Part shown: positions 3,330 through 52,469 of the stretch, piece after piece
How the letters are laid out: each line of letters opens with the position of its first letter
Numbering within the stretch: position 1 is the stretch's first letter
Assembly (NCBI GenBank): GCA_951406725.2
Contig: OX597816.1
Coordinates: 2,914,001-2,978,000 of the forward strand
Length of the DNA stretch: 64,000 nucleotides
Source of the DNA: Octopus vulgaris
Lineage: Eukaryota
Reading direction: 5' to 3'
Position numbers and translations under genes: made by a program
The notes under the pieces: generated by a model
Told to the model about the DNA's origin: nothing
The model's database searches: none
Seen by the model: the letters and a program-made list of their open reading frames with translations, nothing else

Positions 3330-3387
3330 CAATTATTTACCGGTAAATTTCGGTATGTAAATACGACAAATTCATCGTCAGGAACTT
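3330..3387 (-). ncRNA. degenerate hammerhead-like motif between TA tracts
   Basis: Minus strand reads CUGACGA...CGAAA-UUUACCGGUAAA-UA with palindromic stem III (atttaccggtaaat). Stems I and II pair poorly. Confidence 0.3.
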
Positions 3388-3447
3388 TGTAAGGTTCATA
3401 CTATATATATATATATATATATATATATATATATATATATATATATA

Positions 3448-3920
3448 TAGGCGCAGGAGTGGCTGTGTGGTAAGTAGCTTGCTAACCAACCACATGGTTC
3501 CCGGTTCAGTCCCACTGCGTGGCATCTAGGGCAAGTGTCTTCTGCTATAGCCCCGGGCTGACCAATGCCTTGTGAGTGGATTTGGTAGACGGAAACTGAA
3601 AGAAGCCTGTCGTATATATGTATATATATATATATATATATATATATATATATATATGTGTGTGTGTGTGTGTGTGTGTGTGTGTGTGTGTGTGTGTGTG
3701 TGTGTGTGTGTGTGTGTTTGTCCCCCTAGCATTGCTTGACAACCGATGCCGGTGTGTTTACGTCCCCGTCACTTAGCGGTTCGGCAAAAAGAGACCGATA
3801 GAATAAGTACTGGGCTTACAAAAGAATAAGACCCGGGGTCGATTTGCTCGACTAAAGGCGGTGCTCCAGCATGGCCGCAGTCAAATGACCGAAACAAGTA
3901 AAAAGAATAAAAGAAAGAGT
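3448..3920 (+). mobile_element. tRNA-derived SINE family B (bipartite, internal TA/GT microsatellite, LINE-like tail)
   Basis: Head aggcgcaggagtggctgtgtggtaag...ggttcagtccc, CORE-like gggcaagtgtct, internal (TA)n(GT)n, 3' tail ggcggtgctccagcatggccgcagtcaaatgaccgaaacaagtaaaa. Confidence 0.85.
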
Positions 3921-5989
3921 AAAAGAAATATATAAAGGCGCAAGCGTGGCTGTGTGGTAAGAAGTTTGCTTCTCAAGCAAATGGTTTTGGGTTCGGTGCC
4001 ACCGCGTTGCACCTTAGGCAAGTGTCTCTCTTCTATAGCTCTGAGCCAAGCGATGTCTTGTGATTGGATTTGGCAGACGGAAATTGATTTGATATAATCA
4101 TCAATAAACCTCCCCACATGACTGATGGCCATATGTCTGTGTTAGAAAGGATCATCATCATCATCGTCATCTTGATCGTTAATATTACCAGGGTGTAACG
4201 CATTGTGGGACCGTCAATTTAGCCCTTCGCTTTTAAAACCATTTTCTCATATTCCCAGCTAAAAATCTATATTTATGTCCCCGTCTTTCTGTTTGCGACT
4301 TTGTCTCTCTCTCTCTGCAAGTGTGTCTATCTGCTTGTCTGTCTGTCTGTCTGGCTGCCTCTGTGTGTCTCTCTCAGTCTCTCCGTCCGTCTCTCTGTAT
4401 CTGCCAACTATATATATAAAAACAAAACAAAAAAACAAACAAACATTAATACCATTTGATGTGACAACTATAGTGAGAATTGTAACACTTTTCACAAAAG
4501 TAGCCAACTTTCTAATCATTAATTCCGAAATAACATTGCGATTCCATTAACGACGCTATAATGATAAGAATAATATTCATGATGATAATAATAATAATAA
4601 TAATAATAATAATGCTTTGATGTCTTTGATTCTTCAGCTCTGGTGATTTTATACTGACCATTTCTCACTTTTCAGCCAGTTTTCCTAAATTCTAAATACA
4701 AAACCAGACATAGGATCATATTTATATATATATATATATATATATATATATATATATATATATATATATATATATATACGTGTGTGTGTGATGTGTATGT
4801 GTGTGTTGTGTGCCTGTATATATATATATATATATATATATATATATAATTTTTTAGAATCTTTATTTTTTTAAAAATACATTTCTAACCATATTTTAAC
4901 CATTTCTTTCTGCTTTTCTGTTGATTTCTCCATTCTTTTAATTATTCAGGTAAAATTTCTGTCTGTCTGTCTGTCTGTCTGTCTGTCTGTCTCTCTCTCT
5001 CTCTCTCTCTCTCTCTCTCTGTGTCTCTCTCTCTCTCTCTCTGTGTGTCTCTCTCTCTCTCTCTGTGTGTCTCTCTCTCTCTCTCTCCCTCTCTCTCTCT
5101 CTCTCTGTATATATATTATTTCCATTTCGTTTTCTTATATTTTATCTCTTTCTTAAATATGATTTTCAATTATTTTATGTTTTATACAATTATTACTGTC
5201 TGTATAATTATTCCAATGTTTTTTTCTCTTTCGTTTTCTTAACAAATTCCGTGTGTACAATGTTTTTCTTTAGACCCACCATCACCTGAAAGTGGTTTAT
5301 AGCAAGACTTATACAATATAACAAAGCATACATTCTTAAAACACAAAACCGATAACAAACTGCAACGCTCAGCTTTAAACGTCTGCCAAGTCCTCACAGC
5401 CAGTTCCTCTTTTTTCTACCTTCCACTTCCAAGTCTTCAGATTTGGTTAAATTCCTTGACCAAGACTTTTTGTTTTACTACCATCTTTGATGTAAGTGGC
5501 AGAGACATTATTTAATGCACGTCAGTTTTCTGATGATGGAATTATCCACAATTTTGTCACCTTTGTTTTGCCTCTAACAGCCTAATCATTAAATTTCCTG
5601 AGTGAGATTAACCCGGTTTTCTCTTTTTCAAACCTCCATCTCAACAATAATCCTAGACTGATCTTTAGTTTCATTTCCCTCAAACCATTTCACGTAATCC
5701 GTCGACAGTGAGTAAACATACATTCCTTTAAACAACCAGTCTCGCGGCAACACGTGATCGGAACGAGATTATCGCAGTTTCGTGTCTCTTTGGTCTTCGT
5801 GACACTTTGACAAACATCCATTAAGCCCTTGGCCTGATTCGGGCGCCCTCTGGATTTAGCAAGCTCAATTTGAATAAAAAAAGATTCGAATTCACAACAC
5901 AAATAAGTTTACTCTCCCTTCGTAGAAATTTATTCTGCTTTCGTTCAGTAAATACAAAAAGAAGAAAGAAGTGGAAAAAGTTTGGTGCT

Positions 5990-6305
5990 CCGTGGGTTCC
6001 GACGACAAGGGTTCCAGTTGATCCGATCAGCGGAACAGCCTGCTCGTAGAATTAAAGTGCAAGTGGCTGAGTACCCCACAGACACGTATAACTCTTTAAT
6101 TTAGTTTTCAATGAGATTCAATGGGACACAGAATGCCACAAGGCTGGCCCTTTTTTGAAATCCAGGTACTACTCATTTTTGCCAGCTGAGTGGATTGGAG
6201 CAACGTGAAATAAAGTGTCTTGCTCAAGGATACAACGCAGTGCTAGGAATCGAACTCACGACCTTACGATAGTGAACCGAATCCCTTAACCACTAAGCCA
6301 CGCGC
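5990..6305 (-). mobile_element. tRNA-derived SINE family C
   Basis: Minus strand begins cgcgtggcttagtggttaag (A box)...gagttcgattcc (B box), then ccttgagcaagacactttatttcac. A degenerate relative lies at ~28960-29150. Confidence 0.75.
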
Positions 6306-50210: not shown

Positions 50211-50614
50211 GGATCTTTTCGGTTTGAACGGCAGTTTTTTCTAGCGGTGTCATATGAAATTGTCACCCATAATTATAACCCTAGTATCGATCTATTGCAT
50301 TTCAATCTGTTTTAAGGTTAGGGTTAGGGTGGGGGGAAGGGTATCTTTTTTTCTTCACAAATGTAAATAAACCCAATCTGTTTCTTAAACGAGGGACATA
50401 TTCATACGGTACAGAATGTTTTTTTTTCTTCAATATACGTCATTGATTGGTTGAAATTGCAGAAATTGAAGAAAAAAATCAACAAATATCTTACAAACTA
50501 TAGAATTTTCTCAATAAAGCCAAGAGAAAAAGATGCTACCAAATATACGAAGTTTAAAATTTTTTAATTACCTAGAAATTATGTTAAAAACTGCCGTTCA
50601 AACCGTAAAGATCC
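50211..50614. mobile_element. MITE with ~29-bp TIRs and 8-bp TSD
   Basis: TIRs ggatcttttcggtttgaacggcagttttt / aaaaactgccgttcaaaccgtaaagatcc. TSD gaatagtc at 50203-10 and 50615-22. Internal ggttagggttaggg. Confidence 0.9.
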
Positions 50615-50904
50615 GAATAGTCTTAGAATTGGTTTATTATATTTGGTAATTATTGTTGAAGACAGAAACAAGAAAATTTAGAGACGTTCTGGCGGCAGAC
50701 AAAAACTCCGAGGGTCCGGAGCCTTGGTGTCGCATCATACAAATAGAAAAAAATAAAAATGTCGGATTTTTCAGTTTACGGGTTATATTATAGAGTTACC
50801 TCCCTTGCATAACTTGAACTCGCGGACGACTTCGGTAGCTTTGAAAGCTTTCAGTTGTGATTCGCGTGGAAATTGGTTTTGTATTTTCACGAGGCAAATA
50901 GTTA

Positions 50905-51470
50905 CTCTTTACTCTTTTACTCTTTTACTTGTTTCAGTCATTTGACTGCGGCCATGCTGGAGCACCGCCTTTATTCGCGCAACTCGAACCCGGGACTTAT
51001 TCTTTGTAAACCCAGTACTTATTCTATTGGACTCTTTTGCCGAACCGCTAAGTGACGGGGACATAAACACACCAGCATCGGTTGTCAAGCAATGCTAGGG
51101 AGACAAACACACACACACACACACACACACACACACACACACACACACACACACACACACACACATATATAACATAAGAGGGATCAGCCATCTGAATGTG
51201 GCTATGGTCAGGGTGGGGTGGTGGGGGTGTTACTGATGCATTTAGCCCCAGGCGAACATCGACATATATACAAATATACATATATACATCGACATATATA
51301 CATATATACGACAGGCTTCTTTCAGTTTCCGTCTACCAAATCCACTCACAAGGCTTTGGTCGGCCCGAGGCTATAGTAGAAGACACTTGCCCAAGATGCC
51401 ACGCAGTGGGAATAAACCCGGAACCATGTGGTTGGTTAGCAAGCTACTTACCACACAGCCACTCCTGCGC
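50905..51470 (-). mobile_element. SINE family B with an insertion in its internal microsatellite
   Basis: Full reverse-complement copy with extra ~100 bp at ~51170-51275. Confidence 0.85.
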
Positions 51471-52418
51471 TTTTTATATGATAAAAGTTTCCTTAAGACG
51501 TGTGAAGGGTTTTCTTTACAGGGGACAGGAAACCGAATTGAGTGGCTTCCGTTTACTTTTCCGAGGGTCATTCGTTAACACAAAGAATGTAGACGTTATT
51601 TGTACCATATTCGAAGTCGCGAGCGCACACACAAACAAATATTCCTCCTTCAACTGTTTAATTGGTGCCCAAATTAGTGAACTCATTTAAAACTACACAA
51701 AACATGGTCTCTGCTAATTACTGGATTAAATATTTAAATGAATCAAATGACATTATGTCGTTTCTAGAAATAAATCTTTCGAGAATGATATATCTATCTA
51801 CTTTTACACATATATACATATATATATGTATGTAGGTGTGTAATTGTGTGTGTGTGTGTGTATATACACACACAATTACACCTGTACGCGCGCGCACTCG
51901 CACATACGCGTGGCTGTGTGGTCAGAAGCTTGCTTCCCAACCACATGGTTCCGGGTTCAGTCCTACTGTGTGGCATCTTGGGCAAGTGTCTTCTGCTATA
52001 GCCCTTGGGCCAATAAAACACTTTTAAGTGGATTTGGTGGACAGAAACTGGACGAAGCCCGTCGTATATAAGTATATAAAGCTATTTGGCAGAATGGTTA
52101 GCGCGCCGGAGAAAATAGCTAGCAGCATATCGCTCGTCTTCACGTTCTGAGTTCAAATTCTGACGAGGTCGACTTTGGCTTTCGAAGTCGATAAAACCAC
52201 AGTTGAGCCCTGGGGTCGATGCATCGACTCACCCCACCCTCCAAAAAAATTGCTGGTCTTGGGTCAAAATTCAATAAATATAACGGAGATATACTTGCAT
52301 AGCAAGTGACCTGATCTGAGAATGTGTGCTGAAACAAAAACAATTGCAGCGTGGAAGGTGTTTATAAGCCATTTAAAAACACAGAAACCATTAGATTCAC
52401 TTCAACATTTAAATTTAA

Positions 52419-52469
52419 TTTGTCAAAATATTTTCGTCGCTTTGAGACCGCGACCTCTTCACCGACAAA
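52419..52469 (-). ncRNA. hammerhead-like motif (C3>G variant)
   Basis: Minus strand reads tttgtcg-GUGAAGA-g-gtcgc ggtctcaaa gcgac-GAAA-atat-UU-tgacaaa. Stems I and II pair well and stem III is the palindrome aatatt. Confidence 0.5.

What the first reader, a model, noticed from the sequence alone, without database searches (positions are those of the whole stretch)
3330..52469. Dispersed population of non-coding hammerhead-ribozyme elements in TA microsatellites, many as fold-back (ambisense) units
Seen: about ten separate loci carry full or partial CUGANGA...GAAA...UH cores with otherwise mostly unrelated sequence (3330, 16180, 29603, 30144, 35142, 47264, 48387, 48696, 49000, 52419), mostly in or near (TA)n. 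In the fold-back cases the inversion point lies just 5' of, or inside, the ribozyme, and one arm often continues into a unique tail. Known: minimal type I hammerheads with short palindromic stem III mark the pseudo-LTRs of Penelope-like elements and animal retrozymes, and PLE insertions can contain inverted repeats. Inference: these are a diverse set of non-autonomous, microsatellite-targeting PLE derivatives. Their transcripts would be rod-like dsRNA hairpins with a ribozyme encoded in both polarities. I cannot tell whether this architecture has been described for this taxon.
Basis: partly seen in the sequence, partly recalled or inferred. Interest (0 to 1): 0.85.

Follow-up and report, generated by a model that had tools for sequence, protein, structure and literature searches.

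The report
Fold-back ends of Penelope-like retrotransposons
These ten ribozyme-like motifs are short, often mirror-image pieces of nine repeat families in what is likely an octopus genome, five of them joined elsewhere in the genome to Penelope-like retrotransposon genes; the layout is a known one, here in thousands of copies, and the mirror arm is predicted to stop the ribozyme from folding.

Summary
The observation largely holds. All ten loci belong to multi-copy families (nine in all); six are fold-backs and eight lie within 150 nt of (TA)n. A structure-aware hammerhead scan passes four loci (6 hits, against 0.35 per shuffle); the bare core motif is not above chance. The reading 'non-autonomous, novel ambisense units' mostly fails. 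Five families, covering six loci, run upstream into RT-endonuclease frames of the Hydra clade of Penelope-like elements; one copy has an intact 711-aa frame. An inverted truncated copy, a one-sided tail, (TA)n targeting and ribozymes on both strands are published, and an Octopus Hydra family is already curated. The antisense arm comes first on both strands and is predicted to lock the ribozyme. What is extra: family A has at least 5,302 copies; 51 of 70 consecutive copies are fold-backs primed at a fixed second site, and arms stop sharply about 17 nt before the ribozyme. One family carries a G3-C8 core swap that I did not find in print, and one is a 547-nt non-coding tandem unit. New members of a known kind; modest interest.

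The parts
3290..3401 (-). Family C fragment between two (TA)n arrays. CUGACGA core at 3381, GAAA and a 14-nt palindromic stem III with UA, but no stem I next to the core. It corresponds to the tail (between the two fixed ends) of a 547-nt non-coding tandem unit.
   Evidence: (793 first-look candidates, 97-100%)
15770..16322 (-). Family B fold-back: arms 15927-16322 (98.5%), 157-nt tail 15770-15926, cores at 16062(-) and 16187(+), long stem II. Both arms share a private change in stem III. The family is joined to a Hydra-type frame.
   Evidence: (1,812 candidates)
29569..29780 (+). Older relative of family A, fold-back 29569-29706 plus tail. U4C core on the inverted arm at 29636(-); the direct arm begins inside the ribozyme (GAAA at 29655).
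   Evidence: 78% to the natural full-length A copy
29825..29924 (-). Tail-only fragment of family I between (TA)n arrays.
30030..30266 (-). Family I single arm: CUGAAGA core at 30226, long stem II, palindromic stem III, GUA site. The family is joined to a Hydra-type endonuclease remnant in L282.
   Evidence: (2,916 candidates)
35055..35283 (+). Family A fold-back: arms 35055-35212 (94.9%), 71-nt tail 35213-35283, cores at 35146(+) and 35121(-), (TA)n on both sides. It is the 3' end of a Hydra-clade PLE with an intact 711-aa frame in L094.
47058..47387 (-). Family F fold-back: arms 47118-47387, about 60-nt tail 47058-47117. U3-A8 core at 47271(+), decayed core at 47247(-).
   Evidence: 1,396 candidates; U3-A8 in 36 of 36
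48290..48470 (-). Family G single arm, core at 48418 lacking A6 (U in 34, C in 2 of 36 copies); 4-bp stem II, minimal stem III. No fold-back in 16 of 16 tested.
   Evidence: (2,459 candidates)
48596..48800 (+). Family D fold-back: arms 48596-48737 plus tail. Decayed cores at 48675(+) and 48657(-); the family core is U4C in 18 of 20. The family is joined to Hydra-type frame remnants.
   Evidence: (1,703 candidates)
48880..49140 (+). Family E fold-back: arms 48880-49083 plus tail. Core at 49000(+) with a damaged GAAA and stem III, decayed core at 48963(-); canonical at family level. Weak endonuclease remnants upstream in two copies.
   Evidence: (1,070 candidates)
52283..52486 (-). Family H single short unit, core at 52462. 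The window copy has G3/G8; the family has G3-C8 in 23 of 36 and G3/G8 in 11. 7-bp stem I, 5-bp stem II, 6-nt palindromic stem III. Not in (TA)n here.
   Evidence: (1,612 candidates)

Best explanation
The loci are short, 5'-truncated and often inverted ribozyme-bearing pieces of nine repeat families; five families are joined to RT-endonuclease frames with the marks of Hydra-clade Penelope-like retrotransposons, and the fold-backs likely form when the element's enzyme nicks both strands of a (TA)n target and primes two copies of its RNA at two fixed sites. Shown: a fixed 3' end followed by (TA)n, a second fixed start for the inverted arm 71 nt upstream (family A), variable inner ends joined mostly with 0-5 nt of overlap, arms that share subfamily alleles, and a sharp limit of arm length about 17 nt before the core. 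Inferred: each target strand primes one cDNA, one at the end of the tail and one at its start. Both are copied from uncleaved RNA of one source element and mostly stop at or near its 5' end, likely the transcription start just before the ribozyme. The two cDNAs are then end-joined head to head, giving an inverted repeat with the tail on one side only. The ribozyme is a passenger: in a fold-back transcript it is predicted to be zipped up by its antisense arm, and families with damaged cores still spread. Families C, F, G and H are likely short derivatives moved by the same kind of enzyme.
For: L094 reads (TA)n, inverted tail-less arm, tail, 711-aa frame, 1.1-kb UTR, ribozyme, tail, (TA)n. The frame has RWK, DKT, YRDD, CxCx5C, CxxC and CxH and no CX2-5CxxC, matching the Hydra description. 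Frames also lie upstream of B (L177, 762 aa open; L189 partial tandem), D (3 of 20 loci), E (2 of 16, weak) and I (L282). Stem III of A, D, E and B matches the published Hydra forms actc-n-gagt, acca-a-tggt and acac-n-gtgt. In the first 70 of 5,302 tail matches: 68 are followed by (TA)3+, 51 have an adjacent inverted arm, 47 of these start within 6 nt of one site, 49 have TA outside it, and 30 junctions overlap by 0-5 nt. Of 69 arms that reach position -1, 51 stop within 18 nt; of 18 that pass -18, 3 stop within the next 18 (Fisher p = 1.4e-5; boundary chosen after seeing the data, arms not independent). Only 2 of 121 arm ends lie at the cleavage site. Arms agree in subfamily markers in 12 of 12 scorable units. 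Contigs of an independent run show loose TA ends at the same two sites (67 and 55 contigs). In vitro, a PLE enzyme cuts and extends both strands, starts at two sites bounding the tail, and needs no ribozyme cleavage (PMC11167929). Stems I and II have probability 0.0 in both full fold-backs tested, on both strands.
Against: No frame was found for C, F, G or H (4 of 10 loci), so their tie to Hydra rests on shared architecture only; G shows no fold-backs (0 of 16), and H is often not in (TA)n (7 of 16 have TA within 130 nt). Pfam and PDB searches with the 711-aa frame gave no hit. No tree against named clades was built. The element (3,465 nt) is longer than the 'generally <3 kb' given for Hydra. 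The E link is weak (E 2.6e-4 and 6e-6). Many junctions are nearly symmetric, which also fits a snap-back hairpin. The -17 limit coincides with the outer end of the extended stem I, so it need not be an RNA end, and families B and I show no pile-up in the range that could be tested. Initiator-like words occur at 1.2% of positions, so the one at -17 is weak support. Two units have discordant arms (L015, L146). No cleavage and no transcript were shown.
Confidence: 0.82

Rival explanations
1. Same elements, different route to the fold-back: one cDNA snaps back on itself (self-priming), is copied into a hairpin, and the endonuclease cuts the second arm at the tail boundary.
For: Inner ends of the two arms are often within a few nt of each other, also far upstream (-1406/-1407 in L008). 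Arms share subfamily alleles (12 of 12). Self-priming at palindromic junctions and endonuclease-made tails are proposed in print (PMC3846280; PMC8557442).
Against: Many units have very unequal arms (-22/-1294, -42/-378, -523/-25) or a direct arm shorter than the inverted one. Two units have discordant arms. In vitro data show extension from both strands at two RNA sites.
Confidence: 0.25
2. One reading: the fold-back units are themselves non-autonomous mobile RNAs, rod-shaped with working ribozymes in both polarities, copied as whole units.
For: They are the commonest form of family A (51 of 70) and fold into long rods (-127 to -384 kcal/mol for A and B). Some junctions recur: -17/-15 four times and -16/-8 twice among 30 top-scoring copies. 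Family C is a non-coding tandem unit.
Against: Junctions are mostly different from copy to copy, which fits independent formation. The tail is on one side only. Five families lead into coding frames. The antisense arm precedes the sense arm on both strands and ribozyme stems have probability 0.0. Cores are damaged at family level in G and in 11 of 36 H copies.
Confidence: 0.08
3. The units are MITE-like or foldback DNA transposons, or palindromes made by repair or replication slippage in (TA)n, and the ribozyme motifs are incidental.
For: Short inverted repeats flanked by TA resemble Tc1/mariner MITEs (recalled), and the bare core motif is at chance level.
Against: The centre varies while the outer ends are fixed and asymmetric. 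Arms run into RT-endonuclease frames. The structured motif far exceeds shuffles, and the 3-8 pair is kept as C-G, U-A or G-C across families.
Confidence: 0.03

Closest known systems
Hydra clade of Penelope-like elements, including Hydra-1_Obim (Octopus bimaculoides) and Penelope-13_HM (Craig et al. 2021, PMC8557442)
   Same: One frame with RT and C-terminal endonuclease; RWK, DKT, CxCx5C, no CCHH; 3' hammerhead with short palindromic stem III; (TA)n targets. Penelope-13_HM is listed with a 5'-truncated inverted copy and the ribozyme on both strands.
   Different: None of six motifs from families A, C, F, G, H and J is in that supplement (line breaks could hide a match), and the ribozyme listed for Hydra-1_Obim differs, so these look like further families. 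Tails are 60-157 nt, not 30-40. Family A is 3.5 kb. Family B lacks the CxCx5C linker and has a long N/S-rich insert. Most copies are 100-250-nt two-armed stubs.
Penelope/Poseidon insertions with inverted pLTR and tail (Adineta vaga, PMC3846280; Anolis PAc in vitro, PMC11167929)
   Same: Head-to-head inverted pLTR, tail on one arm only, microhomology at junctions, two RT start sites bounding the tail, AT-rich targets, ribozyme not needed for insertion.
   Different: A different clade; there the ribozyme overlaps the start of the frame, here it lies upstream of the tail and 5' UTR. Copy numbers here are in the thousands.
Minimal PLE hammerheads (Cervera and de la Pena 2014, PMC4209133)
   Same: Type I, minimal palindromic stem III, extra base after A9, many divergent families per genome, mostly solo truncated copies, pairs 100-700 bp apart on opposite strands, U3-A8 core variant, low activity needing dimers.
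   Different: The G3-C8 core of family H is not in the parts of that paper I read. Families B and I have 55-60-nt stem II domains.
Non-LTR retrozymes of animals (PMC7229834; bioRxiv 10.64898/2026.07.22.740005)
   Same: Family C is a non-coding, low-GC tandem unit with a hammerhead-like core, and PLE ancestry of such units has been argued.
   Different: Its unit is 547 nt (reported range 150-450), arrays seen are two units or less, it carries PLE-type inverted arms, and its core does not fit a type I fold. The other eight families are not tandem.

Membership tests
Hydra-clade PLE (family A) | Single frame, RT core with C-terminal GIY-YIG-type endonuclease | tested here: met
   711-aa frame in L094 with YRDD at 344 and the endonuclease block after the linker, read by eye against the Hydra alignments in the supplement. 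Pfam and PDB give no hit. Atlas neighbours carry HTH_animal in 25-38% of members, lower hits GIY-YIG or RVT_1.
Hydra-clade PLE (family A) | RWK motif and DKG changed to DKT | tested here: met
   RWK at 37, DKT at 113.
Hydra-clade PLE (family A) | Linker CxCX5C instead of CX2-5CxxC; CCHH absent; CxxC and CxH near the end | tested here: met
Hydra-clade PLE (family A) | N-terminal GxKF/Y not conserved | tested here: inconclusive
   A GNKY word occurs at 51, after RWK; not aligned to the canonical position.
Hydra-clade PLE (family A) | Hammerhead near the 3' end | tested here: met
   Core 138 nt before the 3' end, CUGAUGA in 30 of 30 top copies, Hydra-type stem III. Stem II is only 2 bp plus an A.A pair in the young subfamily.
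Hydra-clade PLE (family A) | Insertion into (TA)n | tested here: met
   68 of 70 consecutive copies.
Hydra-clade PLE (family A) | Generally shorter than 3 kb (descriptive, not diagnostic) | tested here: inconclusive
   3,465 nt with the tail counted at both ends; published range 1.1-3.0 kb.
Hydra-clade PLE (family A) | Groups with Hydra in an RT tree | not tested
Hydra-clade PLE (families B, D, E, I) | Ribozyme arm contiguous with a Hydra-type frame | tested here: met
   B: L177, L189, 41% to A over the RT, but no CxCx5C linker. D: L072, L077, L082. E: L098, L105, weak. I: L282.
Hydra-clade PLE (families C, F, G, H) | Ribozyme arm contiguous with a Hydra-type frame | tested here: not met
   No same-strand upstream frame in 36 copies each of F, G and H (1.5-3 kb upstream) or in 20 copies and six 10-kb regions of C. 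Not filed as Hydra members; they work like PLE derivatives.
PLE insertion architecture | Inverted 5'-truncated copy, tail on one side, partial tandems | tested here: met
   A: 51 of 70. B: 10 of 20 with the arm starting 152-164 nt from the 3' end. Also C, D, E, F, H, I; none in G. Tandems in L091 and L189.
Minimal type I hammerhead | Core with a Watson-Crick 3-8 pair, stems I and II, palindromic stem III, UH | tested here: met
   At family level in A, B, E, I (C-G), F (U-A, 36 of 36), H (G-C, 23 of 36) and D (U4C, weak stem II). Not met in C (no stem I) and G (no A6).
Minimal type I hammerhead | Self-cleavage as monomer or dimer | not testable with these tools
   Needs in vitro transcription.
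Non-LTR retrozyme (family C) | Non-coding tandem units, each with a type I hammerhead | tested here: inconclusive
   547-nt tandem units without a frame, but the core sits in the loop of another hairpin and stem I is missing.
Non-LTR retrozyme (family C) | Abundant circular RNA | not testable with these tools
   Only contigs of runs guessed to be RNA were on offer.
Ambisense ribozyme RNAs (viroid-like; recalled) | Ribozyme free to fold in each polarity | tested here: not met
   Stem I and II pair probability 0.0 on both strands in the A and B units; the antisense arm comes first. An equilibrium prediction only.
MITE / foldback DNA transposon (recalled) | Symmetric terminal inverted repeats around a conserved interior | tested here: not met
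   One-sided tail, variable centre, link to RT frames.

The most novel reading that the evidence does not exclude
The main product of a young Hydra-clade element is not a truncated copy in the usual sense but a two-armed stub made by two priming events at fixed sites on RNA from one source, both running off a defined RNA 5' end 17 nt before the ribozyme. Thousands of such stubs would then record the unresolved Penelope insertion step base by base and seed the genome with hairpin (dsRNA) sources against the element itself. Alongside them is a family with a natural G3-C8 swapped hammerhead core, which would complete the set of natural 3-8 pairs if it cleaves.
Probability: 0.35. Interest if true: 0.55.

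Novelty: new member of a known kind. Interest (0 to 1): 0.3.

Why it matters
As a class this is known: inverted, tailed, TA-targeted PLE ends with minimal hammerheads. Its value is as material. Craig et al. name the origin of inverted structures and of microsatellite bias as open questions. Family A offers an intact frame plus at least 5,302 young copies with two fixed start sites and a sharp 5' limit, enough to test two-strand priming against snap-back by counting and in vitro. The U3-A8 and G3-C8 families give natural tests of whether PLE hammerheads are under selection to cleave, and families that spread with broken cores (G, part of H) argue that cleavage is not needed to move. For annotation, these stubs could be mistaken for MITEs or miRNA hairpins: the Rfam rows at these fold-backs are miRNA models below their gathering scores.

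Tried and rejected
The generic repeat finder was swamped by microsatellites and was replaced by masked self-BLAST. Rfam gave no hammerhead hit; its models evidently miss these minimal forms, so this says nothing against them. 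A DNA search with the 71-nt tail alone found nothing, not even the window itself; an exact pattern was used instead. Pfam and PDB sequence searches with the 711-aa frame were blank. Sequencing runs: no RNA holder listed; contigs of runs guessed to be RNA cannot show starts, strand or level, so expression, circularity and cleavage stay open. One alignment column (reference 3394, 10 events) was dropped from the arm comparison, because the alignment there runs into flanking TA. L327 and L328 are one locus seen from both ends and are counted twice. Top-scoring samples favour copies like the window's own and cannot give truncation profiles; only family A has an unselected sample, from one contig arm and needing an exact 32-mer. 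First-look candidate numbers are not copy numbers. A type II or type III fold for family C was considered and rejected (no UH before the 5' hairpin, no core after stem III). Frequent conversion between arms was rejected as the main cause of arm likeness: private variants are unshared 26 times and shared 4 times. Two relevant papers (Lunse et al. 2017 on PLE hammerhead dimers; Arkhipova et al. 2017 on Terminons) are not held and may already report G3-C8 cores or octopus families. Earlier scan findings: none.

Full report
Setting. The window is G000:C3:2914001-2978000 of a 2.8-Gb assembly in 227 contigs. It is AT-rich, full of microsatellites and SINEs. I take the host to be an octopus.

Observation. 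Each of the ten coordinates lies on a hammerhead-like motif, five on the minus strand only. The bare core pattern is at chance level: 10 hits against 6.4 +/- 2.5 in 60 shuffles. With stems I and II, a palindromic stem III and UH required, the window gives 4 strict hits (16180 and 35142, both arms) against 0.017 per shuffle, and 6 relaxed hits at 4 loci against 0.35. The descriptor was written after I had seen the motifs. Six loci are fold-backs. Eight lie within 150 nt of (TA)6+, against 20% of background positions; 52419 lies 3 kb away. Rfam shows no hammerhead among the 150 rows listed of 312.

Families. Searches of the genome with each locus returned 40 scored copies from 650-2,916 first-look candidates; 29603 was not searched on its own and is 78% like family A. 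The ten loci are therefore nine families: A (35142, 29603), B (16180), C (3330), D (48696), E (49000), F (47264), G (48387), H (52419) and I (30144). A, B, C and I are young (95-100% to the window copy); D-H are older (75-96%). The 'unique tail' is a fixed family sequence: one 32-mer of the A tail has 5,302 exact matches, and 0 for the reversed control.

Link to coding elements. L094 holds (TA)n, an inverted arm without tail, the tail, an open frame of 711 aa from its first Met, a 1.1-kb UTR, the ribozyme, the tail and (TA)n. The frame has RWK, DKT, YRDD, CxCx5C, CxxC and CxH, and lacks CX2-5CxxC and cysteines in the GIY-YIG core. These are the marks given for the Hydra clade of Penelope-like elements (PMC8557442 section 11). 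Pfam and PDB searches were blank; atlas neighbours carry HTH_animal, GIY-YIG and RVT_1 on part of their members. No tree was built. Family B joins a 762-aa open frame (41% to A over the RT; no CxCx5C linker; long N/S-rich insert) and forms a partial tandem in L189. D has frame remnants upstream in 3 of 20 loci and E weak ones in 2 of 16; I has an endonuclease remnant contiguous with its UTR in L282. For F, G and H no such frame was found in 36 copies each. C is a 547-nt tandem unit with no frame in 20 loci and six 10-kb regions; the window holds only its tail.

Architecture in an unselected sample. I took the first 70 of the 5,302 tail matches along contig C1. Sixty-eight are followed by (TA)3+. 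Fifty-one have an adjacent inverted arm (one locus counted twice); 47 of these start within 6 nt of one site, about 71 nt before the 3' end, and 49 have TA outside. Thirty junctions overlap by 0-5 nt, 7 by more, and 14 have 1-18 extra bases. Contigs of a public run have loose TA ends at the same two sites. Arm ends pile up just before the ribozyme: 51 of 121 lie at -18 to -1 from the first core base, 3 at -36 to -19, and only 2 at the cleavage site. Position -17 is the A of an initiator-like word, but such words occur at 1.2% of positions, and -16 is also the outer end of the extended stem I. Family H has a similar sharp start near -20; B and I show none in the range testable. Arms agree in subfamily markers in 12 of 12 scorable units and in 7 of 8 carrying one minor allele. 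Private changes are unshared 26 times and shared 4 times after one artefact column was dropped. Two units have discordant arms.

Mechanism. In vitro, a Poseidon PLE enzyme cuts AT-rich DNA on both strands, extends both, starts at two RNA sites that bound the tail, and does not need ribozyme cleavage (PMC11167929). That predicts what is seen here: one strand primes at the tail end, the other at the tail start, and the two cDNAs are joined head to head. I infer that most templates are RNAs that begin just before the ribozyme, as Penelope is transcribed from an internal promoter (PMC2377424), so both cDNAs run off after 90-160 nt. The main rival is snap-back self-priming (PMC3846280). It fits the symmetric junctions but not the very unequal or discordant arms. 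I put two-strand priming at about 0.6 and the RNA-end reading at about 0.5; the identity as PLE ends is much firmer.

The ribozymes. Stem III of A and D, E, and B has the published Hydra forms. The 3-8 pair is C-G in A, B, C, D, E, G and I, U-A in F (36 of 36), and G-C in H (23 of 36; G/G in 11, among them the window copy). U3-A8 is known from PLEs (PMC4209133) and U4C from a viroid (PMC3088659). I found no natural G3-C8 family in searches, only engineered ones, but two key papers were not held. D is U4C in 18 of 20, and older A subfamilies are too. G lacks A6 in 36 of 36. C lacks stem I and folds its core into another hairpin. Kept pairing across families suggests past selection; families that spread with broken cores suggest cleavage is not needed to move. 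In the A and B fold-backs the antisense arm precedes the sense arm on both strands, and stems I and II have probability 0.0. In the isolated plus-strand A arm they reach 0.4-1.0, but near 0 in the isolated minus-strand A arm, and in B only stem II forms. 'Ambisense' is thus true of the DNA but predicted not to give active ribozymes.

What is known. Craig et al. describe the inverted 5'-truncated copy, the one-sided tail and (TA)n targeting, curate Hydra-1_Obim from Octopus bimaculoides, and list Penelope-13_HM with an inverted copy and a ribozyme on both strands. Cervera and de la Pena report minimal hammerheads in pairs on opposite strands and mostly as solo truncated copies. A 2026 repeat annotation of Octopus vulgaris lists 31 recently active Penelope-like families and has no occurrence of 'ribozyme' or 'Hydra' in its main text (PMC13282606); its supplements were not read. 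Searches turned up no paper on these stubs in cephalopods.

What I read: PMC8557442, passages, section 11, supplement searches and part 2 of 59; PMC11167929 and PMC4209133, parts 1-2 of 4; bioRxiv 10.64898/2026.07.22.740005, part 1 of 5, supplements closed; PMC3846280, PMC3088659, PMC2377424, PMC7229834, PMC13282606 and PMC3884650, passages only. Lunse 2017 and Arkhipova 2017 are recalled, not seen.

Verdict. Real, but a known kind: new Hydra-clade families and their derivatives. Interest 0.3. The extra value lies in the scale and sharpness of the family A stubs, the G3-C8 family, and the 547-nt tandem family.

Noticed in passing
It is an old family (438 candidates, 72-86%) with a CUGAUGA half-core at 14870(-) and no frame hit in 16 loci; the GAAA half was not located.
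   Followed up: partly
window 3290-3401 and 29825-29924: Tail-only fragments of families C and I sit alone between (TA)n arrays: the stretch between the two fixed ends can be inserted by itself.
   Followed up: partly
window 8992-9056, 56418-56528, 56589-56699: Short TA-bounded inserts with 16, 6 and 11 near-full matches among fetched loci; perhaps tails of further families.
   Followed up: no
window 11200-11262, 11736-11820, 16633-16714, 17765-17862: Four smaller palindromes; 11736-11820 continues into a common dispersed repeat. No core was checked.
   Followed up: no
   Followed up: no
L177:2107-4395 (-): The family B frame has a long N/S-rich in-frame insert where the zinc-finger linker should be, yet B still targets (TA)n (20 of 20). 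It recalls the N-rich inserts of Adineta Penelopes and bears on the idea that the linker directs TA targeting.
   Followed up: partly
L189:1-1437 (+): A further Hydra-type frame, 43% to A, that by eye closely follows Hydra-1_Obim.
   Followed up: no
L183, L191, L192: Family C occurs as partial tandems of a 547-nt unit with inverted arms; its hammerhead-like core lies inside the tail, unlike family A.
   Followed up: partly
window 19197-20138 (+): A 313-aa stop-free stretch, low in repeats and ending in a hydrophobic segment; possibly a host exon.
   Followed up: no
window 9440-10860 (+): Two tandem fragments that look like the C-terminal part of a LINE reverse transcriptase (family label recalled, not tested).
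   Followed up: no
flanks of L019, L077, L094, L153: Other hammerhead-like motifs of unrelated families turn up in flanks of fetched loci, so the genome holds more families than the nine studied.
   Followed up: no
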